Shown: positions 12,839-47,200, numbered from the stretch's first letter. The stretch: DNA of 60,424 bases from Acinetobacter phage Acba_15 (OQ101257.1), one strand, 5' to 3'. Translations and numbers: made by a program. Notes: generated by a model from the letters alone, not told the origin.

Positions 12839-12907
12839 TTTAAGCAAGCCATACAGGTGCTACCAACACCTATATGGCTCTAATCAAATTGAAATTGAGG
12901 CTCCAAA

Positions 12908-13641: not shown

Positions 13642-13767
13642 GAGGTTCACATGCTCCGAATAATTAAGCAGGTCTTTTGCATTCATGTTTGGGAATATGA
13701 ATCCGACATGTTCAATCAGAAAGAATGCAGAAAGTGTGGAAAGATTAAGTGTTTGTAGCCCTGTCGT

Positions 13768-14239: not shown

Positions 14240-14278
14240 TATAGTGAATACTTATTAAGCAATACAGGTAGTTAATCG

Positions 14279-14473
14279 ATGAAAGTATTCAAAGCTGATT
14301 TAGATGGTGGTCGCTTTAAGTTCCAAGAACTGGTTTCTATTCCAAGTGATATTCAATGGGATTATTCAAAAAAATGTTTTGATCCAGTTAATCAAATATA
14401 TATTTTTCATAGGCATAATCTTTCATTTAATGAGTTAGATGAATTGAAAAGACAGTTCTTTGATGAAAAATAG
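14279..14473 (+). CDS. Hypothetical protein.
   Basis: ORF only. Confidence 0.3.
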   Translation: MKVFKADLDGGRFKFQELVSIPSDIQWDYSKKCFDPVNQIYIFHRHNLSFNELDELKRQFFDEK

Positions 14474-14477
14474 AATA

Positions 14478-14503
14478 AAGCCACCCTCGGGTGGTTTTTT
14501 ATT
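14478..14503 (+). terminator. Intrinsic terminator.
   Basis: Hairpin ccaccctcgggtgg plus ttttttattgc. Confidence 0.5.
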
Positions 14504-14514
14504 GCGAGGTCAAA

Positions 14515-15006
14515 ATGGAATTCAGACAAGTTGTTAAGAACCATTGCGACATTGCGCCAGTCACTAACTTTCTTAATGTGAATCATGGTAAGGCAGCGAG
14601 TGAAGGGAAGCCGTTAGTTGTATTGATTGCACCTCAAGAGAAAGACCGGACGAAAGCTCAAAACCGTTTGTACTGGATGTGGCTAAATCAGTGGGCTAAG
14701 AAGCAGGGAACGGATAAAGACTATGAACATCTGTTCTTTAAGAAGAACTTCTTATCCAAAATCTATGATCGTGATGACGTTGGCCAATACAAGAAAACAT
14801 TCAAGGCTGTTAGAGAGTTGAAGGATTCTAAGCATCCTCTTTATCAAGATGTAGCAAACGGCCTATGCGAGCTAATGAGCACTACAGACGCAAGTACAGC
14901 TCAATTCACAGAATACCTAAACGACATTCACGCATTCTGCAATAAAAACGGGTGTTATTTGGAAACGCCTGATGATTTAAAATGGTGTTATAGTGATCCT
15001 TTATAA
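14515..15006 (+). CDS. NinB/Orf-family recombination mediator.
   Basis: PLVVLIAPQEKDRTKAQNRLYWMW resembles the lambda NinB segment PIVVTIQERNRSLDQNRKLWA. Start set at the ATG MEFRQVV, because the track start lies inside the terminator. Confidence 0.55.
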   Translation: MEFRQVVKNHCDIAPVTNFLNVNHGKAASEGKPLVVLIAPQEKDRTKAQNRLYWMWLNQWAKKQGTDKDYEHLFFKKNFLSKIYDRDDVGQYKKTFKAVRELKDSKHPLYQDVANGLCELMSTTDASTAQFTEYLNDIHAFCNKNGCYLETPDDLKWCYSDPL

Positions 15007-27487: not shown

Positions 27488-27841
27488 ATGAGCAATTTTG
27501 TATTTAAGCGTGGTGACACTTTCAACTTAAATCTTCAGCTAGTTGATATGGATGAAGCCCTGCAATATCCACCAGATGATGTGCGCCGTGCAATTGATCT
27601 TACAGGTTATACCTTCACTTCACAGGTTAAAGCTCTGGCTGATGGTGCTACTGTGGCCACATTAACTTGTACTGCATTAAGCCAAAGCACACAGAAAGGG
27701 TGGCTGAACATTAAATCTAGTGCAAGCACTGCAACTTGGCCTTTAGGGCTGTGTCAGATGGATATTAAAGCTGTAGTTAGTGGCACTACACAGCACACTG
27801 AAACTTTGACTTTCCAAGTGATTGACGGGGTAACAGCATAA
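27488..27841 (+). CDS. Hypothetical tail protein.
   Basis: Call based on position. Confidence 0.3.
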   Translation: MSNFVFKRGDTFNLNLQLVDMDEALQYPPDDVRRAIDLTGYTFTSQVKALADGATVATLTCTALSQSTQKGWLNIKSSASTATWPLGLCQMDIKAVVSGTTQHTETLTFQVIDGVTA

Positions 27842-29196
27842 TGGCAAATCTTGTTTTTAAATTTAGTTGGGATCACCGGCCATTCCCGTATAACTCGGCT
27901 CAGGGAAAACGGCAATTCATGCTGCCATTCGCTTCAGGCATTCCTAATCTGGCACCAAACTTTTCGCAGGTCCAAGGTACTGCTGCAGTCTCTCAAGGTG
28001 GTACTGGGGCGACAACTGCACTAGATGCTCGAAATAATCTCGGAGCAGCAGAAAAAGGGGTGAATAGTGACATTACAGAGCTAAAAGGATTAACCAAGGC
28101 TATTGCAATTTCTCAAGGTGGTACCGGTGCAACAACTCCATCCGATGCTCGAACTAACTTAGGGCTTGGTAGTGCCGCGACTAGAAATGTTGGTACTACA
28201 GCTGGTAATTTGATAGAAGTTGGCGGTTTTGGAATTGGTGGAGTAGGCCAAACTTTTGAAAGAAAAATGATTACGGGAGTAAACCTAGATTCTGTCGTTA
28301 GCTATGTATTGTTATTTCCTTATTCTGTCAGAAGCTCACCCAATCGAAACATGTTTGGTGAGCTAGTGTTTTCGAGGGGTGATTCAGGCTCAGCAAATCA
28401 ACATTCGAGAACTTTAGTATCAATTCAGCAAGCATATGATCGTGTTACAGCTCGGTTTATTAGTATTGGTGTAACAACTCATATTTCAGGTATGGCTGTA
28501 GTTAAATATCAAAATGTAGACTATGTTGCCATTCGAAGAACAGCAAGTTCTTCAACATCGGCATTTAGATATTTTTCCGGTATTTCCAATATTACATCTG
28601 ATAATTATTTAGTTACTGTTCATACAGATGACGTTGTTATTGTCAGTGAGATACCTGTTGTAATTGAGCAGCTAAGAACATCTGCGAATACTTCTGTGGA
28701 TTCCAACGGTTTCATAAAAGCAGCATCACCAGTAGTTAAGCTATTTAACGACCATATCGAGCTCAATAATGATGCAGAAAAGCAGCCTATTGAATTTAAG
28801 AAAGTCGATGTAGGCGACTATTTACTTAAAGGCTCTTTAGGCTTTGCTCAAGAAGGTTGGTATATCGAAGTACCTAAAGACGCAAACGGCAACACAATCG
28901 TTGCAGTAGTGTATGACACCCTAGAAAATGGTGACATCTCAATTAAAACTTACAAGTGTAAGTTTGATTTTGAACTTGCTGCTGTTGTGGCAGATCACGA
29001 GAACCCAATGGACATTCCAGAAGGCCGCTGGATTGATATCCGTCTGCATGAAGAACCTGAACCAGAACCTGAGGTTGAAGAAACTTTGAGTGAAACACCA
29101 GTGGATTTCCAGCCTACTAACTTATCTCAGGCAGTTGCTGCAGCCATGAATGGCGTGGAACCGCCAGAAATCTCAGACACAGACGAAACACTTTAA
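27841..29196 (+). CDS. Fibre-like structural protein with N-terminal SQGGTGATT..DAR.NLG repeats.
   Basis: Two copies of the tail-fibre-type motif, and an acidic PEPEPE C-terminus. Confidence 0.4.
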   Translation: MANLVFKFSWDHRPFPYNSAQGKRQFMLPFASGIPNLAPNFSQVQGTAAVSQGGTGATTALDARNNLGAAEKGVNSDITELKGLTKAIAISQGGTGATTPSDARTNLGLGSAATRNVGTTAGNLIEVGGFGIGGVGQTFERKMITGVNLDSVVSYVLLFPYSVRSSPNRNMFGELVFSRGDSGSANQHSRTLVSIQQAYDRVTARFISIGVTTHISGMAVVKYQNVDYVAIRRTASSSTSAFRYFSGISNITSDNYLVTVHTDDVVIVSEIPVVIEQLRTSANTSVDSNGFIKAASPVVKLFNDHIELNNDAEKQPIEFKKVDVGDYLLKGSLGFAQEGWYIEVPKDANGNTIVAVVYDTLENGDISIKTYKCKFDFELAAVVADHENPMDIPEGRWIDIRLHEEPEPEPEVEETLSETPVDFQPTNLSQAVAAAMNGVEPPEISDTDETL

Positions 29197-29199: not shown

Positions 29200-29222
29200 C
29201 CCGCTTAAAAAGCGGGTTTTTT
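29200..29222 (+). terminator. Intrinsic terminator.
   Basis: Hairpin cccgcttaaaaagcggg followed by tttttt. Confidence 0.55.
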
Positions 29223-29248
29223 ATTGCCTAAATTTTGGAGAACCATAA

Positions 29249-30166
29249 ATGAGTTCAGGCGCAAAAATTCGATTATATGCTTGTGAAGAAGCAGTTTTAG
29301 GAACAACTCCAGCAAACCCGATCTGGTACACAGTTCGCCGTGTAAGTGATGGTTTATCTGAAAATGTTTCTACTGAAGAAAGCAGTGAAGTGGTTGATTC
29401 ACGTTTTCGCCAAGGTGGGGTAGTTACTGAAGCAGAAGTAGCAGGTCAGTTAGAGTTTGAATTATCACTTGGTACCTTTGATTTGTTCTTAAGTGCTTTA
29501 GCATTCAATAACTGGGCGACAAACAGCTTAACAATTGGCGGTGCTGTTCGAAAATCATTAACGTTAGTTAAAGTTTTTGAAGATATTGGGCAGGTGTTTA
29601 TTTACCGTGGAGTTCAGGTCAATTCTGGTGAAATTACTATCCAGACTACAGGAAAGATCACTGGTAACTTTGGTCTTGTAGGTAGCTCATTTACTAGACA
29701 GCAAGTCAACCCTGTTGTAAATCCGATTGCAGCTTCAACACGTCCACTGGTCAGTATGCCAAACGTGGAAAACTTGCTTGTAAACGGCCAGTCAATTCAA
29801 GGCAAAGCATGTCTACAGTCTTTGACCATTTCTATTAACAATAACCTTGAAGCAATCCGTTGTATCGGATCTGGTAAATACACTCCAGAGTTTTATTTAG
29901 AGAAGATGATGGATATCGAAGCGAATGCTTCATTCATGTTCTCGGCCACAGCTGCTGGTTGGATTGATGCAATCAAAACCCGTGATGTGTTTACACTGAC
30001 CTTCGACATCAGAGACAGCAAAGGAAGTAAATATTCGTTCAACTTCCCGCAATTGGAAGTCATGGAAGCCAATCACCCGGATGGTGGGGGTGATGACATC
30101 ATTACTGTAGACATCAACTTTGCTCAAGTTCGTACAGCTCCAACGATTGTACGTGCTCTTGTGTAA
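29249..30166 (+). CDS. Major tail (tube) protein (probable).
   Basis: 305 aa, located directly upstream of the chaperone pair and the tape measure, which is the lambda V position. Confidence 0.45.
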   Translation: MSSGAKIRLYACEEAVLGTTPANPIWYTVRRVSDGLSENVSTEESSEVVDSRFRQGGVVTEAEVAGQLEFELSLGTFDLFLSALAFNNWATNSLTIGGAVRKSLTLVKVFEDIGQVFIYRGVQVNSGEITIQTTGKITGNFGLVGSSFTRQQVNPVVNPIAASTRPLVSMPNVENLLVNGQSIQGKACLQSLTISINNNLEAIRCIGSGKYTPEFYLEKMMDIEANASFMFSATAAGWIDAIKTRDVFTLTFDIRDSKGSKYSFNFPQLEVMEANHPDGGGDDIITVDINFAQVRTAPTIVRALV

Positions 30167-30185
30167 TCAGCTTAATCAGTAACAA

Positions 30186-30213
30186 AGCCTATGAAATTCC
30201 ATGGGCTTTTTTA
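30186..30213 (+). terminator. Intrinsic terminator or attenuator.
   Basis: Hairpin agcctatgaaattccatgggct followed by ttttttatt. Confidence 0.45.
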
Positions 30214-30236
30214 TTCCTAAAATTTCAGAGGTTGTT

Positions 30237-30752
30237 ATGGCTTTAAAAGTCGGAATTATTAAAAGCTCAGACGTATCAAAATGGTGTGAATACAAAGGTG
30301 CTGATGGAGAGGTACAGGCAGAATTTAAAGTCCGTGGTATCGCTTATAAGCCTTTTCAGGTAGCGATTGAACGAGCAGGAAACCAGATCTCGTCTAAAGG
30401 CTACGATGTAATGGTCAAAAATGAAGATGCCAAGCTTTATCACGAGTTGTTAATGGATGCATGCGCCGCCCACTTAATCGAAGACTGGAAAGGTGTGGTA
30501 TTTGCCGAAATCGTAGACGGTAAAACGGTCGAGTCCGAAAAACCTTATACACCTGAGAATGCCTCAAAGCTTCTTAATCTTGGTGATATTGGTATTTCGA
30601 TCTGGCTATTTATTAAAGAACAGGCCCAGAAGATTCAGGAAGAAGCAGACAAGGACAAGGCTTTAATTCTGGGAAAGTCATCGATCTCTACAAATACCAA
30701 AAAACGTATGCGTCGAAAACGCCGCACGAAATCGAACAAATCAAGTTCTTAG
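30237..30752 (+). CDS. Tail assembly chaperone, lambda gpG-like.
   Basis: Its position is before the tape measure. It overlaps a start-less -1 frame ORF and contains a G GGA AAG slippery site. The track start at 30201 lies inside the terminator, so the real start is at MALKV. Confidence 0.55.
   Translation: MALKVGIIKSSDVSKWCEYKGADGEVQAEFKVRGIAYKPFQVAIERAGNQISSKGYDVMVKNEDAKLYHELLMDACAAHLIEDWKGVVFAEIVDGKTVESEKPYTPENASKLLNLGDIGISIWLFIKEQAQKIQEEADKDKALILGKSSISTNTKKRMRRKRRTKSNKSSS
30671..30677 (+). other. Programmed -1 ribosomal frameshift slippery heptamer G GGA AAG.
   Basis: It is in the zero frame of the chaperone gene. The -1 frame stays open with no ATG from 30617 to 30997. Confidence 0.6.
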
Positions 30753-30997
30753 GTGGTCGTATTCCTGATCCACCAGAATATTCTTATGCGGCTGATTCCA
30801 TTCTTGCGGCATTTAGCACTATTTGCAGATCCAGACGATATGAGCAGGGTATCCCATTATCTTTAGATCAACAGGCAATCAATGTCTATGCTGAGCATAA
30901 TGATTTACCAGTAGCTGCTCATATCTTTAATGACTGTATTTTTGCATTGGATAATTTGTTTTTGGATGAGGTGCATAAGAAAGCGAGTAAAAAATAG
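30671..30997 (+). CDS. -1 frame extension giving a gpGT-like fusion product. The frameshifted chaperone runs 30237..30677, then continues in the -1 frame to 30997.
   Basis: ORF of 108 codons without a start codon, overlapping the 3' end of the chaperone gene. Confidence 0.5.
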   Translation, partial: GKVIDLYKYQKTYASKTPHEIEQIKFLGGRIPDPPEYSYAADSILAAFSTICRSRRYEQGIPLSLDQQAINVYAEHNDLPVAAHIFNDCIFALDNLFLDEVHKKASKK

Positions 30998-31006
30998 AAA
31001 TCTATA

Positions 31007-31270
31007 TTGCATTTGGCAAAAATCAAAGATAAATTGATGTCTCATACTTCTCACTCTTTGAGTAAGGGCCGCCGGTCGAATGTCGGGCTTTTTTTGTTAA
31101 GTGGTAATTCACCTACAAAGGAAAGCATGATGAAGAACCTTACTCATGCAGAACCCTATTTCATCATGCGTGAAAAAAAGGAACTGCAAAAGAGACTTTT
31201 AGATAAGAACAATGAACTATTGGAATTGATGCAAAGAGTTGAAAAATACTTGATGAGGATAGAAAAATAG
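31007..31270 (+). CDS. Hypothetical small protein. The start is uncertain and may be at 31127.
   Basis: ORF only. Confidence 0.25.
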   Translation: MHLAKIKDKLMSHTSHSLSKGRRSNVGLFLLSGNSPTKESMMKNLTHAEPYFIMREKKELQKRLLDKNNELLELMQRVEKYLMRIEK

Positions 31271-31287
31271 AGAGTTGTCTTTCTACA

Positions 31288-31322
31288 AAAAAGCCCGCCT
31301 AATCAGCGGGTTTATTTGTTTC
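31288..31322. terminator. Bidirectional intrinsic terminator.
   Basis: A-run, then hairpin gcccgcctaatcagcgggt, then a T-run. It lies between convergent genes. Confidence 0.5.
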
Positions 31323-31589
31323 TAGCTCTTCAATTCGTGCCATTAGTTTTTCAATTAAAACAGTTGCGCGATCTAAATTCTTATTGCTCATATCTATAAG
31401 CTTCATAACTTCAGTTGGGATTTTCTCATTTATATCAAGGCTTTCTTCAAGTCTTGCAACTATTTCAGCAGTTAAAGATCTTTCATTGTCTTTAGCCTTC
31501 TCTTCTAATAATTCTTTGAGCTTGCTAGGCATTCTAAAATTCACTTGAGAATAATCTTTAGCCATGGACCATATACCGCAAATTGACAA
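31299..31589 (-). CDS. Ribbon-helix-helix repressor, Mnt/Arc-like.
   Basis: VNFRMPSKLKELLEEKAKDNERSLTAEIVARLEESL is the Arc/Mnt RHH pattern. It is transcribed divergently from the next RHH gene. Confidence 0.5.
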   Translation of the reverse strand: MSICGIWSMAKDYSQVNFRMPSKLKELLEEKAKDNERSLTAEIVARLEESLDINEKIPTEVMKLIDMSNKNLDRATVLIEKLMARIEELETNKPAD

Positions 31590-31687
31590 TTAACTAATCA
31601 TATATAGCAAAAGTGCTTTACACAATGAAGCAAGAGTGCTATAAAGTAAAAATGCTATATAGCAAAGGTGCTTTATTGGAGGTAAAA

Positions 31688-31849
31688 ATGACAAGGCATG
31701 ATAAGCAAATGAACGTTCGTATGGCACATGAAACAGTAAGTGAATTAAAGGAGGTAGCAAAGAAAAATCGTCGATCGGTAACGGCTCAGTTAAATCAAAT
31801 CATAGAAGACTGGCTAAAAGAACAGAAACAACAGGATGCGAAAGCATGA
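31688..31849 (+). CDS. Ribbon-helix-helix repressor, Arc-like.
   Basis: MNVRMAHETVSELKEVAKKNRRSVTAQLNQIIEDWL. Confidence 0.5.
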   Translation: MTRHDKQMNVRMAHETVSELKEVAKKNRRSVTAQLNQIIEDWLKEQKQQDAKA

Positions 31850-31928
31850 AATTAACAGACAACAAAAAAGCCCCTGAATCTTGGCGGATGCGGAGCTTGA
31901 TTGAAGTCATAACAGTGAGATATGAACT

Positions 31929-32315
31929 ATGTTAAATATACCATTCGAATTTGATAAAGACAAGGTTCTAGATATTACCGATCTACTGCCAACCATTCCT
32001 ATTGAGATTCTTGAGAAAGTAACAGATCAAAACGGTTCTGTTTCGGCAGATGAAGAAAATTTTCTAAAATCTGTAGGCCGTGCTGCGGAAAATGCAAACC
32101 TTCCAGTTTTAAAGGGATTAAGTGCTATTGGTGTGTTGCTTGCCAACGCAAATGAAGAAATACCGTTAGGAACATTTAATGATGTTGGCTGGTTAATACA
32201 ATCGCTTAGCGAACAAGTTTTAGCTATAAGCCATATGCAAGGGTTCGCTGACTTACTTCTTGATGCAAGTAATAAGAACAAAATCTCTAAGGGCAATGGA
32301 GGGCTAATGTCATGA
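31929..32315 (+). CDS. Hypothetical protein.
   Basis: ORF overlapping the ant start. Confidence 0.3.
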   Translation: MLNIPFEFDKDKVLDITDLLPTIPIEILEKVTDQNGSVSADEENFLKSVGRAAENANLPVLKGLSAIGVLLANANEEIPLGTFNDVGWLIQSLSEQVLAISHMQGFADLLLDASNKNKISKGNGGLMS

Positions 32316-32851
32316 ATATGCTTATTAACCAAGAAACTTTAATTCCAGTTGTTGATAGAGATATTGGCGGAGAGGTTCAGCCTTCTGTTGATGCACGTGA
32401 ATTGCATAAGTGGCTTAAATCTGGGGAAATGTTTGCCACATGGATAAAAAAACGGATTAAGACCTATAAATTTATTGAAAATGAAGACTATATTAGTTTT
32501 TTGGTAAACCCCAAAAAACCTAATGGTGGGCGTTCTTCAAGAGAATACATATTAACTATTGATATGGCTAAAGAGCTGTCAATGGTTGAAAACAATGAAC
32601 AAGGTCGGGTTGCAAGACGTTATTTTATTAACTGTGAAAAAGCATTGCGACAAACAGCATTTGGATTAATGAACCAATTCAACAGAGCTGTATTAGAGTT
32701 TGAGAAGTTTACTGAAATTGCTTCAAATGCTGGAAGAACATTATGTTTGGTTGGTAAGCAGTACAAACCTCAAGCATTAAGTAAGGTTGAGGAGCTGAAG
32801 CAAAAGATTACGCCTTTGCTCCCATTCGAAGAAGACGAGATGCAAGCTTAA
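32312..32851 (+). CDS. AntA/AntB-family antirepressor.
   Basis: IPVVDRDIGGEVQPSVDARELHKWL...FATWIKKRIKTYKFIENEDY...REYILTIDMAKELSMVENNEQGRVARRYFI matches the AntA domain pattern. Confidence 0.6.
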   Translation: MNMLINQETLIPVVDRDIGGEVQPSVDARELHKWLKSGEMFATWIKKRIKTYKFIENEDYISFLVNPKKPNGGRSSREYILTIDMAKELSMVENNEQGRVARRYFINCEKALRQTAFGLMNQFNRAVLEFEKFTEIASNAGRTLCLVGKQYKPQALSKVEELKQKITPLLPFEEDEMQA

Positions 32852-32860
32852 AAGAATTAA

Positions 32861-32885
32861 GAACCCGCCAAGTGCGGGTTTTCTT
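32861..32885 (+). terminator. Intrinsic terminator.
   Basis: Hairpin cccgccaagtgcggg followed by ttttcttc. Confidence 0.45.
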
Positions 32886-32947
32886 CATGTGACATTTAGT
32901 AACCAGTTTGTTAAAGTTAGTACACTTTATAACAAACGGTGAAATTC

Positions 32948-33454
32948 ATGAAAAAGATTATTTTTATTCTAGCTGCACTAGGAATTATTACAAGTCATGG
33001 GTGTATTACTATTCCTTCTCCAGAAGAAGTCCAAAGAAATGCTTATAAAGGATATTCTGAAGTGGTAGAACTGAATAGTATTCCTAAAGATCAAATATTT
33101 GAACTTTCAAAAATCTGGATTGCTAAATCTTTTAATTCTGCAAACAATGTCATTCAGTATGCGGATAAAAATACTGGAATAATCATAGGGAAAGGTAACT
33201 TTTCTCTTAAATGCCCTGACAATGTAAAAGGTATGAATTGCTTAGCTTATACATCAACTAAAGCAGAATTTACTTTGAAAATAGAGATAAAAGATGGCAA
33301 ATCCAGATTGACCTTTAGTGATGTACACCAAGCTGTAAATAACTACCCATTTTATGACAATATTTCTAAACCTATTATTGATTCCCAGATTAAAGGGATA
33401 GTTAAGAACTATGGTCTTGATATCATAAATCAAAAGAATGATTCAAATTGGTAG
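32948..33454 (+). CDS. Lipoprotein. Moron.
   Basis: Signal peptide MKKIIFILAALGIITSHGC with a lipobox-like ITSHGC, in an AT-rich gene. Confidence 0.45.
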   Translation: MKKIIFILAALGIITSHGCITIPSPEEVQRNAYKGYSEVVELNSIPKDQIFELSKIWIAKSFNSANNVIQYADKNTGIIIGKGNFSLKCPDNVKGMNCLAYTSTKAEFTLKIEIKDGKSRLTFSDVHQAVNNYPFYDNISKPIIDSQIKGIVKNYGLDIINQKNDSNW

Positions 33455-33513
33455 TAATTTGCTAATAAATAAAAGGTTAAATACTCATACTTAATAGTTT
33501 TTAAATACCAAAT

Positions 33514-33584
33514 AGCCCACTCATCGAGTGGGTTTTTTAATACCCAAAACAAAACCCCAGTAGCGCTAACTACTGGGGTTTTTC
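33514..33584 (+). terminator. Two tandem intrinsic terminators.
   Basis: Hairpin agcccactcatcgagtgggtttttt and hairpin aaaaccccagtagcgctaactactggggttttt. Confidence 0.5.
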
Positions 33585-33625
33585 ATTCCACCCACCGACG
33601 AAAGTAAGAGGAAAGTAAATCTATA

Positions 33626-33775
33626 TGGAGCATTTTAAACCAATAGTGGAGCTTATGAAAGTGTCTATTGAAAAGTATGGCTTATGGCAGACAATTATTG
33701 CCTTTTTAATTTTGTTTTCCATACCAATTCTAATCTGGAAATTACCTGAAATCATTGCAGCGATTAAAGCCTAAA
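33626..33775 (+). CDS. Small membrane protein of 49 aa (hypothetical).
   Basis: Hydrophobic core IIAFLILFSIPILIW, followed by a terminator. Confidence 0.25.
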
Positions 33776-33825
33776 ACCGACCTATCAATGGTCGGTTTTT
33801 TATTACCGAAATTTTGGAAGCAAAT

Positions 33826-34173
33826 ATGACGGATAAATCCAAATGGTTTGTTTTTAAGAAAAATGATCAAGTTTTTGGATGTTTCAGGATTAAGCCTTTT
33901 TCCGATCCTGAATTTGGTAAAGCCTATAAAATGCTTTGTACCAAAAAAAGTATTTTTAGAATGAGTGCCATGCGATCTGCCCAAGAGTTTGCAAAAATTA
34001 TCGCAACTCATCTTATACAGGATTGGGAAAATATTGAACTTTCAAAAACAGGAATAGCTGGAGAAAAGGAAACACGGTATTCGCCTCAATCGGCCTATCA
34101 GCTATTGATGTATGGAGATCTAGGGGCTGAGATAACTTCATGGATCTTGGAAAAGTCCAAAAGTATTGCCTAG
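33826..34173 (+). CDS. Second tail-assembly-chaperone-like protein, paralog of 30237..30752.
   Basis: THLIQDWENIEL...YSPQSAYQLLMYGDLGAEITSWILEKS aligns with AHLIEDWKGVVF...YTPENASKLLNLGDIGISIWLFIKEQ. Confidence 0.45.
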   Translation: MTDKSKWFVFKKNDQVFGCFRIKPFSDPEFGKAYKMLCTKKSIFRMSAMRSAQEFAKIIATHLIQDWENIELSKTGIAGEKETRYSPQSAYQLLMYGDLGAEITSWILEKSKSIA

Positions 34174-34233
34174 TTAAGACTCGATTTATTGCCGCCGCTT
34201 AAGGTGGTTTTTTATTGCCTGAAGGAAAGTCAA

Positions 34234-37200
34234 ATGGCTCAAGAAGCTCGCTTAGTAATTGTTATTGATTCGGAACGTGCGAAACGCACTGCACAAGACT
34301 TATCAGTTGAATTGGATAGCATCACCAAAAAAGGGGATTTCGCCTCGAAATCTATGGACCGGATGTCTGTAGCAACTCGTGCACTAGCAGGGTATATGGC
34401 TGGTTTATTAACAGTAGGTTCAGCCATTTCAAAGATGGATACATATACTGGACTACAAAACCGCCTTAAGTTGGTCACTAATAATCAAGTTGAACTAAAT
34501 AAAGCTACGGAAGACACTTTCCGAATTGCTCAAAAAACCTATTCAGCATGGGATTCTGTTCTACAGGTCTACCAGCGTTTTAGTGATAATGCCAAAACTT
34601 TAAACCTCACAATGGATGACACAGCACGTTTAACTGAAACAGTTTCTAAAGCTGTAGCAATTAGTGGTGCAAGTGCAGAAGCTGCTGATGCAGCTTTAGT
34701 TCAGTTCGGGCAGGCCTTGGCTAGTGGAACGTTGCGTGGAGAAGAACTTAATTCTGTAATGGAGCAAACCCCAGCACTAGCAAAGGCTATTGCTAAAGGT
34801 ATGGGTATTACTGTAGGTGAATTACGTTCAGTAGCAGCTGAAGGAAAAATTACTTCACAAGAAATTGTAAAAGCGCTTAGAAATGTAGAATCTGATGTTG
34901 ATGCTCTTTTTGCTAAAACAGATATCACAATCGAGCAGTCTCTCACACTCCTAAACAACGAGATCACAAAATTTGTTGGCGAAGCAGGTAAGGGAAGTGG
35001 TGCGGCACAGGTATTAGCTGGATCAGTTCAAACTCTTGCAAGTAATTTAGATTTAATTGCTGATGGGGCTTTAGTAGTTGGTATTGGATATATCACTCGT
35101 GCAATTTTGATGAAGAGCGCTGCTATTAAAGAGGGAATGGCTTCAACTTTAGCGAGCCGCCAAGCATCTGTATTAAATGCTCAAGCAGAATATGCAGAAG
35201 CTACCGCTGCTTTGAATGCAGCAAAAGCTCATCTCGCGAATGTGCGAGCAACAAATGCAGAAACCCAAGCTAAATTTGGCGCAACAGCGGCAGCAACTCG
35301 ATACGCACAAGCACAGGCAGCAGTAACTGCTGCTACAAATGCACAAACAGCAGCTCAAATTAAGCTAAATACTGCAACTTCAATTGCAGGGAGACTAGCT
35401 AAAGGGGCGTTTGGATTAATTGGTGGGTGGGCTGGAGTTGCAACATTAGGAGTAATGGGATTAGCGGCAGCCTATTCTTATTTTAATAATAAGGCAGAGG
35501 GGGCAAAGCAAAAGCTTGCTGAACAAGCTAAAGTTGCTGAGAAAGCTGATGAGGAGTTAAAAAAATTAACTGGCAATGATAAGGCTAAAGCAGTTAATGA
35601 TTTAACTACTGCTTTTAATGCACAAAATAAAGCATTAGAGAAATCATCGCGTGCTGTAGGGTCTGCATTAATTGATATCGAGAACTATGCACGAGGAAAT
35701 AGGGAGGTTGAAAAAATTTCCCAAGAAGCGAGAACTGGAACTATCAGCTATACAGAAGCCATTGAACGTCTAAATAAAATTAAGTTGCCTACAGATCTAT
35801 ATGAAAATCTGAAAAAACAGGCTGCGCAGTATGATGACAATGCATCTAAAGCAAGTTTATCAGCTGAGAAACTTAAATTATTAAGAGTTGAAGTGAAACT
35901 TGGAGGTAATGAAGCACAAAATGCGGCAATTCAGCATCAAAAACAAGCGGATGCTTTAGGAAATACTGCTACTGAAGCAGAAAAGGCAACTAAGGCTTTG
36001 CAAGATTATCAAGCCAAGCAAAAAGATAGCGTTATTGATTCAATCTATAAATCAGGTTGGCTTGATAAAGGTTACACTGTTGCTCAAGCTAATGCCATTT
36101 TAGAACTGCAAAAAGCTAAAGGAATGAGTGCAATTTTGTCTAAAGATGAAATTGATAGCGCACTTAGAAATCTCAAGATCATCGAAGAACAACAGGAGCG
36201 AGAAGATAAATTAACTGAAGCTAAAAGAAAGCAGACGCAGGAAATTGAAAAACAAGCAAAACTTACTAAACGCTTGGTCGGTATTTCCGGTCAATCCGGT
36301 ATTGGTACTGGTCCACATCTTGACGTCCGATATGGTGGCTCATTGTCAGGTCAGAAAGTTTCTAATGAACATCTGGCTCGATTACAGGCGGGAGGAAAAC
36401 CTTTAACTTCCTACAAGATCAGTTCTAATTATGGTCCACGAAAAGCCCCAACTAAAGGGGCTTCTTCATTTCATAAAGGTATTGATTTTTCAATGCCTGA
36501 AGGAACACCAATCACGACCAATGTTGCTGTGAAAGATATCAAGACATGGTATGACAGCAAGGGAGGTGGTTATGTCAGTGAAGTGATCTTTGAGGATGGA
36601 GTGTCTCTTAAGCTTCTACATCAATCTCCCAAGATGCAGAGCAAGGTGAAAGGTGGTGCAAGTAAAGGAAGTGATAAAGCAGCTGGTGATATTCAATCTC
36701 AACTTGAACGTCAACAGGATTTGCAACGGTCACTTGAAAATGAGGTGGCTAGTGAAGTCGGACGGATTAACAATAATAGAAAGGCAAGACTGGAGGATGT
36801 TGATAAAGCAAACTTTAGCCCGGAACGTACTGCAGAAATAAAGGCGGAAATAAATCGTCGTGCAGATAATGATATTGCTATAGCCAAACAAGCCCTTAGA
36901 ACGAAATTGGAAGACTATAAGGAGTTCCAGAAAACCGAGGAACAGTTACTAGAAGAGTCCTTTAACCGTAAAAAGTTCAATGCAGCTCATGACCTTGAAT
37001 TAAGTAAGTTTGAGCAGAAGCAAGCTGTTGAATTGCTGGAACAGCAAAAACAGCAAGAGTTAGGGTTATTAAAACTAGCTCAGGAACAGCGGTTGTTTCA
37101 AGCCCGTTTATCTCTGCTTTCTGAAACGCAAGCCATGCAGGAACGTTACAGACTCGAACGGGAGGAAATTCTTAAGAATACCAAGCTTTCTATAGAAGAG

Positions 37201-38208
37201 CGGCAAAAGCTAATCGCATTATCTAAAGCCAATCAGGATAAAGAGACACGCGATAAAGTGAATAATGCTGTTCAAAACTGGGGTGGTATTCAGGCGAGTA
37301 TCACTGGTAATAGTGGTCAATTCGCTTTAGAACAGGAGCGCTTTCGCCGTTATGATGCTTCTCAAAAAGTATTTGATAGCCAGCTTGCTGATATTGAAAC
37401 TCAGGAACAAGATCCAAATGCAAATATGGTAGCTCTAAATGCACAACGTGAACAAATCATGAAGGAGCACTTTGAGCGTTTGAAATTGATTGAATCTACT
37501 TATCAAAATGATTCAATGAATCTCCAGTTGGGTTATGGAGCTAGTGTCACAGGGGCATTGGCTGGCATGTTTAAAAATATGCTTGGTGAGTCATCAAGTG
37601 CTTATCACGTTCTTTATGAAAGTCAACGTGCATTCGCATTGGCGCAGGCTGGAATGAACATGTGGAAAGCTGCTTCAGATGCTTACGCAAATGAGCCAGG
37701 TACTTGGTACCAAAAAGCGGCAGCAGCAGCGATCGCGACAATTAAATCAGGTACATTTGTATCTCTCATCCAAGCTGCAACCCCGCAAGGATTTGCGGAT
37801 GGTGGTTATACAGGTAACGGCCTAAAACACACTCCAGCAGGGATTGTGCATAAAGGCGAAGTCGTATGGTCGCAAGAAGATATCAAACGCTGGGGTGGTG
37901 TTAGCGTTGTTGAAAGTATGCGTCAAAGCAATCCAAGTGGTTATGCGAACGGAGGTTACGTTTCTAATAATCAGTCTGATGCTATTGCAATACGTAGAGA
38001 GTCTAGACAGTTTGAGGCAATCAACTCTAATCAATCTCAATTGAATACGAACGAAAAGCCAATAAATGTGTATGTCACTGTTAATGCCGATGGCACAAGT
38101 AAAACAGAGACAGAAAACGACTCAAAACAATTGGGCCAAATGATTGGTAATGCAGTAAGAACTATTATTCGCCAGGAACAAAGACAAGGTGGTTTGTTAT
38201 CTAAGTAA
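34234..38208 (+). CDS. Tail tape measure protein with an internal M23/LytM-like segment.
   Basis: About 1325 aa, largely helical and Ala/Gln/Lys-rich. FHKGIDFSMPEGTPI matches the M23 H.GiDf..p.GtPi motif. GTGPHLDV lies upstream of it. Confidence 0.75.
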   Translation: MAQEARLVIVIDSERAKRTAQDLSVELDSITKKGDFASKSMDRMSVATRALAGYMAGLLTVGSAISKMDTYTGLQNRLKLVTNNQVELNKATEDTFRIAQKTYSAWDSVLQVYQRFSDNAKTLNLTMDDTARLTETVSKAVAISGASAEAADAALVQFGQALASGTLRGEELNSVMEQTPALAKAIAKGMGITVGELRSVAAEGKITSQEIVKALRNVESDVDALFAKTDITIEQSLTLLNNEITKFVGEAGKGSGAAQVLAGSVQTLASNLDLIADGALVVGIGYITRAILMKSAAIKEGMASTLASRQASVLNAQAEYAEATAALNAAKAHLANVRATNAETQAKFGATAAATRYAQAQAAVTAATNAQTAAQIKLNTATSIAGRLAKGAFGLIGGWAGVATLGVMGLAAAYSYFNNKAEGAKQKLAEQAKVAEKADEELKKLTGNDKAKAVNDLTTAFNAQNKALEKSSRAVGSALIDIENYARGNREVEKISQEARTGTISYTEAIERLNKIKLPTDLYENLKKQAAQYDDNASKASLSAEKLKLLRVEVKLGGNEAQNAAIQHQKQADALGNTATEAEKATKALQDYQAKQKDSVIDSIYKSGWLDKGYTVAQANAILELQKAKGMSAILSKDEIDSALRNLKIIEEQQEREDKLTEAKRKQTQEIEKQAKLTKRLVGISGQSGIGTGPHLDVRYGGSLSGQKVSNEHLARLQAGGKPLTSYKISSNYGPRKAPTKGASSFHKGIDFSMPEGTPITTNVAVKDIKTWYDSKGGGYVSEVIFEDGVSLKLLHQSPKMQSKVKGGASKGSDKAAGDIQSQLERQQDLQRSLENEVASEVGRINNNRKARLEDVDKANFSPERTAEIKAEINRRADNDIAIAKQALRTKLEDYKEFQKTEEQLLEESFNRKKFNAAHDLELSKFEQKQAVELLEQQKQQELGLLKLAQEQRLFQARLSLLSETQAMQERYRLEREEILKNTKLSIEERQKLIALSKANQDKETRDKVNNAVQNWGGIQASITGNSGQFALEQERFRRYDASQKVFDSQLADIETQEQDPNANMVALNAQREQIMKEHFERLKLIESTYQNDSMNLQLGYGASVTGALAGMFKNMLGESSSAYHVLYESQRAFALAQAGMNMWKAASDAYANEPGTWYQKAAAAAIATIKSGTFVSLIQAATPQGFADGGYTGNGLKHTPAGIVHKGEVVWSQEDIKRWGGVSVVESMRQSNPSGYANGGYVSNNQSDAIAIRRESRQFEAINSNQSQLNTNEKPINVYVTVNADGTSKTETENDSKQLGQMIGNAVRTIIRQEQRQGGLLSK

Positions 38209-44200: not shown

Positions 44201-47200
44201 GCTGATGAAACTGATGCACGCACAGCGGCAATTTCTAAACTGAATGATGGTCTCACCACAGAAACGTCTCAGCGCAAGTCAGAAGATGCTGCACTGTTAA
44301 ACAATATTGAGACTTATAAGTCGAGCACCAATGGCACTTTGTCTAGTCTGCAAACGCAAATTAATACCAACGCGACAAATACAAGTGCAAATACATCAAA
44401 AATTTCTTCGCTTGACTCTCGTTTAACCACAAACGAAGGCAAAACCGCAGATGCGATTAATGCAGCGGCAACAGCTCAACAAACTGCCAATACCGCCGTT
44501 ACTAATGCGGCAGCAGCAGCTTCGGCAGTTACCTCACTAAAATCAGAGTTGAGTACAGGCAAAGGCATCAACAATATCATTGCGCCTTTTTCTGATCCGC
44601 AAGAACTATCACCTTACATTATCGGTGCGTCGAGAACCGTTGCCTTAGTAAAATCACCAATGCGTATTAAGGGTAATGCTTATGACGTTACATTTAATGC
44701 GGTGGCTGGCAGTATTTATTTTGGTTCCTCGTCACTAGCAACAGTCAATACTGCGGCGGCAGGTGTTGTCAGTGGCGGAAAGCGTTACATGCTAAGCGCT
44801 TATTTAAAGAACCTCGATGCCACTAAACAGGCAGATGTTTACTTTACATTGCATTGGTTTAAACGTGCAGCAAACGGCACTTTCACGGCTTCTCAAAGTG
44901 TTTTATTAAATCAGGCAACTAACAACACACGAGTAACACCTTCAAACGACGGCGGTACAATTAGCTGTAAAGCTGTAGCAGCACCACCAGATGCAGTTGC
45001 CTTTGCGGTTATCTGTTCTGGCAACGGCGTTTATAACGTCGCTGGTTCACGCATTCTCATTGACATGTTAATGCTTGAAGAGGTCGTTGGTGTCGATGTA
45101 CCTGCTTCAACATGGACAGCAGGACCAACTGATTTAAGTGCTATTAAATCCGCTCTTGATGCCAATGCTTCTGCTATTAGCAAAATCGATACCCGTGTAA
45201 CAAATGCCGAAGGCACCATTACAAGCCAAGGCAATTCAATTACTCAATTGAATAACAGCGTTACGTCAATCAATGGCGAACTTACGAAGAAAGCTGATGC
45301 TACGGCTTTAAATGCCTTAACCAACCGAGTATCGACAGCAGAAGGCACAATTACAAGTCAAGGCAATTCAATTACGTCTTTACGTAATGATTTAAACGCA
45401 ACCAATGACAAGGTTTCGTCAAAAGCGGACTCAAGTGCATTAAATTCCTTAGATTCTAAGGTTACAAGCATTGATGGAAGAGTAACTAGCAATACGAGTG
45501 CTGTGACCTCATTGCAAGGTCGTGTTTCAACCGTCGAGGGTGGACTTTCATCGAAAGCAGATGCCTCGGCATTAAACAATTACTACACCAAAACAGAGGC
45601 GGATTCTGCCGCTTCTGGCGCAATCGATAAGTTCAACAGTCAATTGACGATCGGCGGAGTAAACGCTGTTGCGAACTCAGAGGCTCCACGTACTTCAACG
45701 GCAGCGACTAACAAAGAATACTTGCTGTACGAACGCAGCGCCGAATTAAAAACGTTCTATGACGAGAACCTTGAGAAGCCAATCACGATTTCGTTTGAAA
45801 TGAGCGTTCCTGTGGCTGGACCAGTTCAAGTTTATTCGTCAAATGGTTCTGCTCACCAATTCGTTACTTCCGTTAACGCGGTTATCGTCAATCAGTTTGC
45901 CAAATACTCAGTAACAGTTAGTCCAAAATCGCACACCGCAAGTACAACTGTTTCAACAATTGAGTTCTATGGAACGTATGGAACTGGTCGTATCCCGACG
46001 ATTCGTAAATTACAAATTGAAGCGGGCACAAAGGCTACCGCTTGGAGTCCAAGCCCTCGTGATACAAAGGCTGCAATTGACGCCAATGCTTCTGCAATTC
46101 AAACGACCCAAACAAAAGTTGACAATATCGATGGTCGGCTAACCACTGCTACAGATTCGATTACGTCACTAAATTCGCGCATGTCTACAGCCGAAGGGAA
46201 TATCAACAGCACAAATACTGCGGTTGGTGGACTTTCGACACGCATGGCAACCGCTGAGGGCAAGATCACCAATCAAAGTGATTCAATTGCATCGCTACAA
46301 AATAGCGTCACCTCAATCAATGGAACACTGGCAAACAAAGCCGATTCAAGCGCGGTCAATAACTTAACTAGCCGAGTGGAAACAGCCGAGGGCAAGATTT
46401 CAAGTCAAAGCGGGCAGATTACTTCGCTTAGCAATAGCCTTGATCTAACAAACAGCAACTTGAACGACGTAAATGTTCTGGCGCGACTGTTATCGCTTGG
46501 TAAGCCTCTACGCGAGGATCCAACTTTTAAAACTACCTCTTCGGGCGGTTTGTCTGCATACAATTTCCCTGCGGGAACCTCATGGATTAAGCAAGCCAAG
46601 TCAACAGACAACCCAACTGGCTCAACCCATGAAATGCTTATTAAGGCAACTCAAGCGTTGGGTGGTGGTTGGTATCCAACTGCTCCAACGCTCGTGCTTA
46701 CTGCTAATAAGACATTCTTAATTAAACAAATTATTAAGATGCCAGTAGGCACGAGATTGCTACCTGTAGGTAACACCACTGGTACGGGTGGTTATATCAG
46801 AATCTTGGGTAACGATCTTGGGACTGGCAAATTTGAAACGTACTACTCGGTCGTTCAGGGTGGATCTGACTTAAGCAGCTCTATTCAGGGTCATTTCCGT
46901 GTAATTGCTGGGACCAACCCGCCAGTACCAACCGTTGATAGTCCAGTTTTTGTAATCCTCGCTTCATACGAAGTGTTTGATGTTACGGCTGTAAATGACA
47001 CCATTCCAAAAGCGTATAGCGATGCTATTGCAGCCAATGCGAATGCTATTAACACGATCTCAAACGCCGTCAGCCAGCAAGGCAATACAATTGCTTCTCA
47101 CAGCAATTCGATTACCCAACTCAACAACAGCATTACTAGCATTAATGGCGCACTTTCGAATAAAGCGGACGCGAGTGCATTACAGTCATTGGATTCAAAA

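What the first reader, a model, noticed from the sequence alone, without database searches (positions are those of the whole stretch)
31007..34173. P22 immI-like cassette (Mnt/Arc-like RHH pair plus antirepressor Ant) and a lipoprotein inserted between the tail chaperone and tape-measure genes, with a duplicated chaperone
The cassette contains a leftward RHH gene at 31299..31589. A bidirectional terminator precedes it at 31288..31322. Diverging from it is a rightward RHH gene at 31688..31849. Then come a 128-aa ORF and an AntA/AntB-family antirepressor at 32312..32851. This is the organisation of P22 immI, mnt | arc-ant.

After that come a lipoprotein at 32948..33454, several terminators, a small membrane ORF and a second, frameshift-less chaperone paralog at 33826..34173 directly before the tape measure.

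An antirepressor module inside the tail operon of a phage that already has two cI-like repressors suggests a layered immunity or anti-immunity circuit. The chaperone duplication suggests the cassette arrived by recombination with another phage's G-to-tape-measure junction.
Basis: partly seen in the sequence, partly recalled or inferred. Interest (0 to 1): 0.75.

Follow-up and report, generated by a model that had tools for sequence, protein, structure and literature searches.

The report
P22-style antirepressor moron in Acinetobacter phage tail operon
A temperate Acinetobacter baumannii phage carries, between its tail-chaperone and tape-measure genes, a swappable cargo block whose core looks like the secondary immunity switch of Salmonella phage P22 (two small repressors, a probable antisense RNA and an antirepressor-type gene); it is a real variant of a known design, and its function is untested.

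Summary
The window is an A. baumannii Vieuvirus-type prophage, 100% identical to phage Acba_16 across 29200-35200.

1. The block is not a one-off insertion. The gap between the chaperone fusion gene (GT) and the tape-measure gene (TMP), 30987-34182, is a cargo hot spot. Close relatives hold HicAB, SocA-like, acetyltransferase or BRO genes there. Modules break at terminators.
2. The second chaperone (G2) is only 28% identical to the first (G1). It belongs to a conserved 115-aa family placed before TMP in distant Acinetobacter prophages, and it assorts independently of the ant module. It is an old paralog, not a recombination scar.
3. The module is analogous to P22 immI, not a member of it. The RHH domains are homologous. 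The Mnt tetramerisation domain and the P22 Ant family are absent.

A conserved acidic 128-aa ORF, found only in Acinetobacter, sits between arc and ant and overlaps ant by ATGA.

New here: the arc-orf128 spacer carries a conserved hairpin with a U-tract on the minus strand and a convergent promoter. The geometry matches P22 sar (about 69 nt), so I predict an antisense RNA.

The ant position alternates between AntA, Bro-N and pRha genes across relatives. All function is inferred.

The parts
30201..30752 (+). Tail assembly chaperone G1. An alternative ATG lies at 30237. The slippery heptamer GGGAAAG is at 30671-30677.
   Evidence: phrog_313 3.9e-61. Slippery site and open -1 frame.
30671..30997 (+). 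T extension of the GT fusion, read in the -1 frame, with stop TAG at 30995-30997. Homology with all relatives ends at 30981-30986, which is the left border of the variable region.
31072..31096 (+). Terminator-like hairpin plus T-run just after GT.
31127..31270 (+). 47-aa ORF of unknown function, helical in appearance. It travels with this mnt allele.
   Evidence: phrog_34228 3.6e-34 on residues 42-87 of the longer ORF. It co-occurs with the 100%-identical mnt allele.
31291..31313 (.). Bidirectional intrinsic terminator shared by the 47-aa ORF and the mnt-like gene.
   Evidence: found on both strands.
31299..31565 (-). Mnt-like ribbon-helix-helix repressor, 88 aa from the ATG (96 aa from the upstream TTG). 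RHH at the N-terminus, helical C-terminal half.
   Evidence: Pfam Arc 1.3e-10. PDB 1mnt E 3.7e-3 and Arc 8e-3. No hit to PF11423, whereas P22 Mnt hits it at 1.6e-20.
31597..31672 (.). Divergent control region. It holds four operator-like repeats AGYAARRRTGCT at 31606, 31629, 31645 and 31661. The predicted rightward promoter is TTTACA(31617)-17-TGcTATAAA(31640). The predicted leftward promoter is TTGTGT(31625)-17-TATGAT(31602).
   Evidence: (4 matches in 60 kb, all here; 0.27 expected; the pattern was derived post hoc).
31688..31849 (+). Arc-like RHH repressor, 53 aa, strong Shine-Dalgarno GGAGG. First gene of the rightward operon.
   Evidence: Pfam Arc 2.3e-7. PDB pArc 1.8e-4, Mnt 9e-3, Arc 3e-2.
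31860..31928 (-). Predicted sar-like antisense RNA of about 69 nt. It would start next to the orf128 ATG, cover its ribosome-binding site, and end at hairpin 31868-31898 followed by UUUUUUGUUG.
   Evidence: Conserved spacer and hairpin, with 3 of 6 pairs changed on both sides and one U-G wobble that pairs only in the minus-strand RNA. Model R1 finds the element in L045, which was not used to build it, at 36.5 bits, E 2.6e-5. The geometry matches P22 sar, Rfam RF00262, at X01916 532-599(-).
31935..31963 (-). Predicted promoter of the antisense RNA: TTGTCT-17-TGgTATATT. The -10 hexamer occupies +7..+12 of orf128.
   Evidence: 9/12 plus extended -10 TG. Conserved in all 11 sequence variants, TTGTCA in L044. 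Weak deficit of synonymous change in the first 13 codons.
31929..32315 (+). orf128: an acidic helical-hairpin protein found only in Acinetobacter. It is the most conserved gene of the module. Its stop codon overlaps the ant start (ATGA).
   Evidence: phrog_14904 1.6e-86. 62 homologs at 57-100% identity; every hit that carries a name is from Acinetobacter or an Acinetobacter phage, and none has a Pfam domain. AF2 pLDDT 81 with helices 40-72 and 80-123. No fold match with E < 0.1.
32312..32851 (+). Ant-type regulator with AntA/AntB N-terminal domain and ORF11CD3 C-terminal domain.
   Evidence: PF08346 2.4e-27 and PF10549 1.2e-18. phrog_5817 'anti-repressor Ant' 1.4e-64. This position holds Bro-N in Ab105-2phi and pRha in L040/L044.
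32862..32880 (.). Terminator hairpin after ant. It is part of an 83-bp linker (32876-32958) that recurs ahead of other cargo genes in relatives.
32948..33454 (+). DUF4468 (TBP-like fold) secreted protein or probable lipoprotein, with its own promoter-like site at 32889-32917 and a terminator at 33514-33534.
   Evidence: PF14730 1.3e-18. phrog_4002..
33551..33582 (.). 14-bp stem terminator-like hairpin between cargo modules.
33625..33774 (+). 49-aa single-pass membrane protein, followed by hairpin 33776-33796 and a T-run.
   Evidence: phrog_35629 9.3e-30. Sequence.
33826..34173 (+). G2: a stand-alone chaperone-G-domain paralog (PF27119 Phage_YdaY) with no slippery site and no T extension. It is the right-most element of the variable region.
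   Evidence: phrog_313 1.8e-20. 28% identical to G1, E 3e-10. Conserved family in which full-length members are 115-138 aa, mostly 115-119. Contexts in L045 and L047.
34183..38208 (+). Right border. Homology with all relatives resumes at 34183-34208, at hairpin 34191-34208. The tape-measure gene runs from the ATG at 34234.

Best explanation
The segment 30987-34182 is the cargo ('moron') hot spot of the tail operon of an Acinetobacter Vieuvirus-type temperate phage. It is bracketed by the GT chaperone gene and the tape-measure gene.

Its core, 31291-32880, is a secondary-immunity or anti-immunity switch built on the plan of P22 immI. The inferred workings are as follows.
- An Mnt-like RHH repressor is transcribed leftward. 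In a lysogen it probably binds the repeated AGYAARRRTGCT sites and shuts the rightward promoter.
- An Arc-like RHH protein is the first product of the rightward operon and limits that operon after a burst of expression.
- A roughly 69-nt antisense RNA, made from a convergent promoter at the start of orf128, pairs with the orf128 ribosome-binding site.
- Because orf128 and ant overlap (ATGA), blocking orf128 translation would also reduce ant.
- The output is orf128 plus an AntA/ORF11CD3 protein. I take this protein to act on a cI-type repressor or on phage early/lytic promoters. It could help an incoming phage overcome the immunity of resident prophages, or tune the lysis-lysogeny choice, while a resident copy's Mnt silences incoming copies of the same allele.

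Downstream cargo (DUF4468 lipoprotein, 49-aa membrane protein) consists of separate terminator-bounded morons, possibly cell-envelope or exclusion functions. G2 is an old stand-alone chaperone-G paralog next to TMP.

Shown: gene content, domain families, repeats, hairpins, modular exchange and conservation across phages.

Inferred: every binding event, both divergent promoters, the antisense RNA, and the target of Ant.
For: Domains.

P22 reference checked directly:
- mnt(-) 83 aa | 90-bp control region | arc 53 aa | 68-bp gap that is exactly sar (Rfam 97.8 bits) | ant.
- The window has 88 aa | 122 bp | 53 aa | 79-bp gap | orf128-ant.
- The antisense -10 hexamer lies at +7..+12 of the downstream ORF in both (P22 TATACT at 611-606; window TATATT at 31940-31935).

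Operator-like repeats are confined to the control region. Diverged mnt/arc alleles carry their own different repeat sets, as expected for repressor-operator pairs.

The spacer hairpin is conserved with compensatory changes and has its U-tract on the minus strand. It is found by the covariance model in a prophage outside the training set, where the downstream ORF is unrelated.

The same order mnt-like|arc-like-orf128-effector lies between GT and TMP in phages whose tube and chaperone are only 31-59% identical or of another type.

Hot-spot behaviour and module breakpoints at terminators.

Low GC and terminator excess.

Precedent for an 'ant moron' as a variable region inside a late operon: PMC2629481.
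Against: - No experiment supports any step.
- Mnt-like lacks the Mnt tetramerisation domain PF11423.
- Ant is of a different family from P22 Ant.
- The one tested AntA-domain protein I found (AriS) is not a classical antirepressor (PMC9043618).
- Rfam's sar model does not match here, and my model does not match P22, so the RNA is at best analogous.
- Promoter-like hits as a class are not enriched: 13 found against 13.5 expected.
- The compensatory changes come from few lineages.
- The synonymous-site test is weak (p = 0.03, 0.13, 0.32).
- The predicted divergent promoters are back-to-back, not fully overlapping as in P22.
- Both cI-like repressors have S24 autoprotease domains, so induction does not need an antirepressor.
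Confidence: 0.6

Rival explanations
1. The Ant-type protein is not an antirepressor. It is an AriS-like DNA-binding regulator that modulates the phage's own lytic genes or the host DNA-damage response. The Mnt/Arc/antisense layer merely times its expression.
For: AriS work (PMC9043618): the AntA/AntB domain regulates lytic genes of its own phage, and its N-terminal domain alternates among AntA, Bro-N and pRha. The same three alternatives occupy the ant position here. These domains are proposed to be DNA-binding domains.
Against: The window protein lacks the ANT/KilAC domain that carries AriS's SOS-inhibiting activity; it has ORF11CD3 instead. Tight multi-layer repression by an Mnt/Arc pair is the hallmark of a product that is dangerous to a lysogen, as in P22.
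Confidence: 0.25
2. The block mainly acts as a transcriptional valve. Its seven or so terminators, together with RHH binding, set how much late transcription reaches the tape-measure and distal tail genes. The coding cargo is incidental.
For: Terminator excess of 13 against 3.2, including hairpins directly after GT and directly before TMP. In P22 the ant moron is thought to influence read-through from the late promoter into the tailspike gene (PMC2629481).
Against: Relatives with quite different cargo and different numbers of terminators share near-identical flanking tail genes. Conservation of orf128 and the RHH genes at 98-100% across divergent tails points to selection on the proteins.
Confidence: 0.1
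3. The RHH genes belong to a toxin-antitoxin or partition-type addiction module, with the Arc-like protein as antitoxin and orf128 as toxin.
For: PHROG labels for the RHH proteins include 'partition protein ATPase' families, and ParG/FitA-like weak hits occur. Neighbouring cargo in relatives includes HicAB and SocA-like systems.
Against: A 79-bp spacer with a hairpin separates arc and orf128, rather than the tight coupling usual for such pairs. orf128 is acidic, has no toxin domain and no PADLOC or Pfam hit. The P22 mnt gene itself is labelled 'partition protein ATPase' in one annotated record, so that label is unreliable. orf128 is coupled to ant, not to arc.
Confidence: 0.05

Closest known systems
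Immunity I region (mnt-arc-sar-ant) and the 'ant moron' of Salmonella phage P22 and P22-like phages
   Same: - A leftward RHH repressor gene diverges from an operon that opens with a 53-aa Arc-family RHH protein.
- The control region between them carries repeats.
- A 68-79 bp spacer after arc holds a hairpin, with an antisense -10 hexamer at +7..+12 of the next ORF.
- An antirepressor-annotated gene lies downstream.
- The block is embedded in the late structural operon as a variable region, alongside small membrane or exclusion-type genes (sieA in P22).

Sources; PMC2629481.
   Different: - The host phage is a siphovirus and the site is GT-TMP, not ejection-protein-tailspike.
- Mnt-like lacks PF11423.
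- Ant is AntA+ORF11CD3, not P22_AR_N/C.
- An extra conserved ORF (orf128) is the gene next to the antisense element and is translationally coupled to ant.
- There is no Rfam sar match.
- The predicted promoters are arranged back-to-back.
AriS-like regulators of Listeria comK prophages (AntA/AntB, Bro-N or pRha N-terminal domain plus ANT/KilAC)
   Same: An AntA/AntB N-terminal domain, and the same three interchangeable N-terminal domain types at one genomic position (PMC9043618).
   Different: The C-terminal domain here is ORF11CD3, not KilAC. The regulatory context (Mnt/Arc pair) and the location in the tail operon also differ.
Lambda-type tail assembly chaperones G/GT
   Same: G1 has the GGGAAAG slippery heptamer, a -1 T extension and the position between tube and tape-measure genes. 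G2 shares the G domain family (PF27119, phrog_313).
   Different: G2 is a second, frameshift-less copy placed directly before the tape-measure gene and separated from G1 by about 3 kb of cargo. I know of no described role for such a paralog.
P1/P7 and N15 anti-immunity operons (c4/icd/ant; antA-icd-antB)
   Same: According to PMC9043618, the AntA/AntB domain is associated with P1/P7 Ant1/Ant2. From my own knowledge, in P1 a small upstream ORF is translationally coupled to ant and controlled by an antisense RNA.
   Different: No c4-type RNA and no icd homolog were detected here. Control is by RHH proteins.

Membership tests
P22 immI (mnt-arc-sar-ant) | Leftward Arc/Mnt-family RHH repressor gene divergent from the ant operon | tested here: met
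   Pfam Arc 1.3e-10. PDB 1mnt E 3.7e-3, with the N-terminal motif A[KR]D..NFRMP aligned.
P22 immI (mnt-arc-sar-ant) | Mnt C-terminal tetramerisation domain (PF11423 Repressor_Mnt) | tested here: not met
   P22 Mnt hits PF11423 at 1.6e-20. The window protein has no such hit. Its C-terminal half is a different, helical-looking sequence.
P22 immI (mnt-arc-sar-ant) | Small (about 53 aa) Arc-family RHH protein as first gene of the ant operon | tested here: met
   53 aa, Pfam Arc 2.3e-7. PDB Arc/pArc hits.
P22 immI (mnt-arc-sar-ant) | Ant of the P22 antirepressor family (P22_AR_N + P22_AR_C) | tested here: not met
   P22 Ant: PF10547 4.6e-44 and PF10548 7.2e-31. Window Ant: PF08346 + PF10549 only.
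P22 immI (mnt-arc-sar-ant) | sar antisense RNA (Rfam RF00262) across the arc-ant gap | tested here: not met
   Positive control: P22 gives 97.8 bits. Nothing in the window at E <= 1. An analogous element is predicted from the hairpin, U-tract, promoter and geometry, but no transcript has been demonstrated.
P22 immI (mnt-arc-sar-ant) | Operators for both repressors overlapping divergent promoters | tested here: inconclusive
   Four repeats are confined to the control region and overlap the predicted rightward promoter. Other alleles have allele-specific repeats. Binding was not tested.
P22 immI (mnt-arc-sar-ant) | Ant binds and inactivates c2/cI-type repressors | not testable with these tools
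   Needs binding or induction assays. No complex-prediction tool was available.
Moron / 'ant moron' (variable cargo inside a late operon) | Present in some relatives and replaced in others, with conserved flanks | tested here: met
   Flanks are 82-96% identical up to 30981-30986 and from 34183-34208. The interior is replaced by HicAB, acetyltransferase, a DUF4258+XRE pair, or ribonuclease/BRO.
Moron / 'ant moron' (variable cargo inside a late operon) | Own terminators/promoters and atypical composition | tested here: met
   Terminator-like sites 13 against 3.2 expected. GC 0.31-0.38 against 0.41-0.42. Promoters are predictions only.
AntA/AntB antirepressor domain family (PF08346) | Domain match above the curated threshold | tested here: met
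   95.7 bits against a cut-off of 27.
Tail assembly chaperone G/GT | Slippery heptamer and -1 T extension between tube and tape-measure genes | tested here: met
   G1: GGGAAAG at 30671, -1 frame open to 30997. phrog_313.
Tail assembly chaperone G/GT | The same features, applied to the second copy G2 | tested here: not met
   G2 matches the G domain only (phrog_313 positions 22-135; PF27119). Its stop lies 60 nt before the TMP start, with no room for a T extension.
Type II toxin-antitoxin with RHH antitoxin | Tightly coupled antitoxin-toxin pair with a recognisable toxin | tested here: not met
   79-bp spacer. orf128 has no Pfam, NCBIfam or PADLOC hit.

The most novel reading that the evidence does not exclude
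The conserved frame Mnt-like | Arc-like - antisense RNA - orf128, followed by an interchangeable AntA/Bro-N/pRha effector, is a family-wide secondary-immunity system of Acinetobacter siphophages. Under this reading:
- allele-specific repressor/operator sets define immunity groups;
- orf128 is a new obligatory partner or co-effector of the antirepressor-type proteins;
- the system governs cross-talk (induction or exclusion) among the several prophages that A. baumannii strains commonly carry.

A further element is that the TMP-linked G2 paralog lets tube/GT modules and TMP modules from different lineages be combined across the hot spot.
Probability: 0.2. Interest if true: 0.6.

Novelty: new variant of a known kind. 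Interest (0 to 1): 0.42.

Why it matters
A. baumannii prophages of this type are abundant; orf128 alone is on hundreds of contigs. They are being engineered into lytic therapeutic phages by deleting cI (Ab105-2phi deltaCI, PMC6921023).

A second immunity layer that can silence or activate repressor antagonists would affect three things: the stability of such mutants, superinfection outcomes, and induction of co-resident prophages.

The finding also gives a second, phylogenetically remote example of the P22 design (two RHH repressors plus a convergent antisense RNA controlling an antirepressor-type gene inside a structural operon). It defines a conserved unknown protein (orf128) and a stand-alone chaperone paralog, both of which can be tested directly.

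Tried and rejected
- Rfam scan of 30800-34400 at E <= 1: only terminator-like sub-threshold hits and no sar. The sar model works on P22.
- Covariance model R1 of the Acinetobacter spacer against P22 immI: no hit. Homology to sar is therefore not supported and only analogy remains.
- PADLOC and NCBIfam on all cargo proteins: nothing useful. A known-defence-system reading was dropped.
- Structure prediction and fold search for orf128: a confident helical hairpin but only generic coiled-coil matches, E > 0.1. No functional lead.
- hhalign of orf128 against the 96-aa ORF at the same position in L045: unrelated.
- Synonymous-site test for the promoter embedded in orf128: the trend is in the right direction but weak.
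- Recent tandem duplication of the chaperone: rejected on 28% identity.
- G2 as a decaying remnant: rejected because the family keeps a conserved length (115-138 aa for full-length members) at 49-100% identity.
- Literature searches on Vieuvirus, Ab105-2phi and the Acba phages: no description of this module. Only the GenBank annotations 'regulatory protein Mnt' and 'antirepressor' exist.

Full report
**Identity of the window**

[quoted passage not shown] All 44 matching records are Acinetobacter phages, many classified as Vieuvirus. The Acba phages are temperate siphoviruses isolated in Poland (PMC9866556). The annotated record shows the usual order: terminase, capsid, tail tube, chaperone, tape measure, distal tail, lysis, integrase.

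**Check of the observation**

- Tail tube 29249-30166 (PF18906).
- Chaperone G1 30201-30752 (phrog_313).
- Leftward RHH gene 31299-31565 (Pfam Arc 1.3e-10).
- Rightward 53-aa RHH gene 31688-31849 (Arc 2.3e-7).
- 128-aa ORF 31929-32315 (phrog_14904 only).
- AntA+ORF11CD3 protein 32312-32851.
- DUF4468 protein 32948-33454.
- 49-aa membrane ORF 33625-33774.
- Second chaperone-like ORF 33826-34173 (phrog_313 1.8e-20).
- Tape measure from 34234.

G1 has the lambda-type slippery heptamer GGGAAAG at 30671, and its -1 frame stays open to a TAG at 30995-30997, so G/GT is intact. Terminator-like hairpins are about four times more frequent than in shuffled sequence (13 against 3.2), and this includes the bidirectional one at 31291-31313. 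GC drops to 0.31-0.38 inside the block. The two cI-like repressors are real, each HTH_3 + Peptidase_S24. The small ORF at 31007-31270 is better read as 31127-31270.

**The region is a hot spot, and its borders are sharp**

BLASTN against ten relatives shows two things.
- Homology of the left flank always stops at 30981-30986, 11-16 nt before the GT stop codon.
- Homology of the right flank resumes at 34183-34208, just after the G2 stop codon.

Between these points close relatives carry other cargo.

| Relative | Cargo between GT and TMP |
|---|---|
| R3177 | HicA/HicB plus a lipoprotein |
| B1251 | an acetyltransferase |
| PhabP_R1 | a DUF4258 + XRE pair |
| Ftm | ribonuclease, BRO and a regulator |
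| Gln | 6.3 kb with HicAB, DUF4468, BRO, Rha and G2 |

Internal breakpoints fall at 32318 (the orf128/ant junction, in Ab105-2phi), 32953-32970, 33516 and 33796. Apart from the first, they lie at terminator hairpins. An 83-bp linker (32876-32958) recurs ahead of unrelated genes in two relatives. This is the behaviour described for the 'ant moron' of P22-like phages, a region of high flux inside the late operon (PMC2629481).

**The immI-like core**

I fetched the real P22 immI record for comparison.

| Feature | P22 (X01916.1) | Window |
|---|---|---|
| Leftward repressor | mnt, 83 aa | 88 aa |
| Control region | 90 bp | 122 bp |
| First rightward gene | arc, 53 aa | 53 aa |
| Gap after arc | 68 bp | 79 bp |
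| Next gene(s) | ant | orf128, overlapping ant by ATGA |

Both window RHH proteins give weak but consistent hits to solved Arc and Mnt structures. Membership fails on three features.
- There is no Mnt tetramerisation domain.
- Ant belongs to another family.
- There is no Rfam sar match.

The module is therefore built like immI without being a member of that family.

**Control region**

Four copies of AGYAARRRTGCT lie at 31606, 31629, 31645 and 31661. There are no others in the 60-kb window, against 0.27 expected; the pattern was derived from these same sites. A good rightward promoter (TTTACA-17-TGcTATAAA, 10/12) is interleaved with them, and a weaker leftward promoter lies back-to-back with it. 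Diverged alleles of the mnt/arc pair in other prophages have their own, different, threefold palindromic repeats in the same place. That is the pattern expected for repressor-operator co-evolution.

**A predicted sar-like antisense RNA**

Across 11 distinct sequence variants the last codons of arc and the spacer are conserved, even where the arc coding sequence has diverged. The spacer holds a hairpin (31868-31898).
- Its stem changes by compensatory substitutions: GCCC/GGGC becomes CCTTG/CAAGG, with 3 of 6 pairs changed on both sides.
- In a more distant prophage the stem is GCGCT/AGCGC.
- In the window one pair is a U-G wobble that pairs only in the minus-strand RNA.
- The run of six A's before the hairpin gives UUUUUUGUUG after it on the minus strand. 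The plus-strand tail is poor.

A minus-strand promoter (TTGTCT-17-TGgTATATT) is conserved in all variants. It places the transcription start next to the orf128 ATG. The transcript would be about 69 nt and would cover the orf128 ribosome-binding site.

In P22, Rfam places sar (68 nt) at 532-599(-), from the base before the ant ATG to the base after the arc stop. By my reading of the P22 sequence, the antisense -10 hexamer sits at +7..+12 of ant, the same offset as here.

A covariance model of the Acinetobacter element finds it in a prophage that was not used to build the model (36.5 bits, E 2.6e-5). In that prophage the downstream ORF is unrelated to orf128. The model finds nothing in P22, so the two RNAs are analogous, not demonstrably homologous.

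Weak points:
- promoter-like hits are not enriched overall;
- the synonymous-site test is marginal;
- the compensatory changes come from few lineages.

**orf128 and the effector**

orf128 homologs (57-100% identical) carry no Pfam domain; every hit that has a name is from Acinetobacter or an Acinetobacter phage, and the commonest variants lie on hundreds of contigs. In 33 viral loci it lies between GT and TMP, next to tail tubes that are 31-100% identical or of a different type. It is the most conserved gene of the module. AlphaFold gives a confident helical hairpin (pLDDT 81) with no informative structural neighbour.

The gene after orf128 always overlaps its stop codon, but it varies: AntA+ORF11CD3 here, Bro-N in Ab105-2phi, pRha in L040 and L044. 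The same three N-terminal domains alternate in the AriS-like regulators of Listeria prophages, where the AntA domain regulates the phage's own lytic genes (PMC9043618). 'Antirepressor' is therefore a reasonable label but an unproven one.

**The second chaperone**

- G2 aligns with G1 residues 23-145 at 28% identity. It lacks a slippery site and a T extension.
- Its family (PF27119 Phage_YdaY, which also covers G1-type proteins) contains 115-138-aa full-length members at 49-100% identity; every hit that carries a name is from Acinetobacter.
- In Acinetobacter sp. Ver3 and A. gandensis prophages the order tube - G1 - cargo - G2 - TMP recurs (with one extra gene between G2 and TMP in the A. gandensis locus), with a diverged ant module in one and no ant module in the other.
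- G2 is absent from phages that carry the identical ant module, and present in phages that lack it.

It is an old, selected paralog that sits at the TMP side of the hot spot. It is not evidence for how this cassette arrived. Its role is unknown. One possibility, which is speculation, is that it acts as a TMP-linked G-type chaperone that tolerates exchange of the tube/GT module. In Acba_11 the tube is 31% and G1 55% identical, while everything from 30921 onward is 100% identical.

**Other cargo**

The DUF4468 protein has its own promoter-like site and terminator. The 49-aa membrane protein is flanked by hairpins. Both fit the moron pattern and may act at the cell envelope, but there is no evidence beyond domain and topology.

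**Verdict**

The feature is real. Its interpretation as a P22 immI-like switch inside a tail-operon cargo hot spot is well supported at the level of architecture. It is a new variant rather than a member of the P22 family, and its parts had only been labelled in GenBank records ('regulatory protein Mnt', 'antirepressor'); I found no description in papers. The predicted antisense RNA, the conserved orf128 and the stand-alone G2 are the points worth testing.

Noticed in passing
window 2707-9681: Two tandem immunity/replication modules. They comprise two cI-like HTH+S24 repressors (2707-3510 and 5899-6681, both on the minus strand), a cro-like gene (3578-3808), two 88-aa paralogs that look roughly 80% identical by eye (3819-4085 and 6982-7248), two replication-initiator genes (4345-5238 and 7613-8356), and a truncated DnaB-like ORF (5232-5606) ahead of the full-length one (8356-9681). 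It looks as if a second imm-rep module recombined into dnaB.
   Followed up: partly
window 76-2358 (-): A 760-aa fusion of an N6 DNA methylase domain with an HSDR_N restriction-enzyme N-terminal domain (type IIG or type I-like). It sits next to the immunity region at the end of the prophage and is probably phage-borne restriction-modification or defence cargo.
   Followed up: partly
window 32876-32958; L007 9585-9668; L009 3854-3936: An 83-bp segment (ant terminator plus promoter-like site and ribosome-binding site) is 86-96% conserved ahead of unrelated cargo genes in other phages. It appears to serve as a module-junction or recombination linker.
   Followed up: partly
L024 4175-5043: In a related prophage the same hot spot also holds a SocA/Panacea-domain antitoxin-like gene followed by a 134-aa ORF with no domain hit. 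This may be a toxin-antitoxin pair located upstream of the mnt-like gene.
   Followed up: no
L007 (vB_AbaS_Gln) 8553-14820: The GT-TMP gap reaches 6.3 kb in this phage and stacks HicAB, DUF4468, BRO, Rha and G2. This shows cargo accretion at the site.
   Followed up: partly
window 27841-29196: A 451-aa tail-fibre-like protein is encoded immediately upstream of the tail tube gene. This is an unusual position for a fibre gene in a siphovirus tail operon.
   Followed up: no
KT588075.2 (Ab105-2phi) 33544-33888 versus 46894-49326: In Ab105-2phi the G2 homolog lies about 13 kb from the tape-measure gene that matches the window. The record matches the query at four places, which suggests two tail modules or a composite record.
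   Followed up: no
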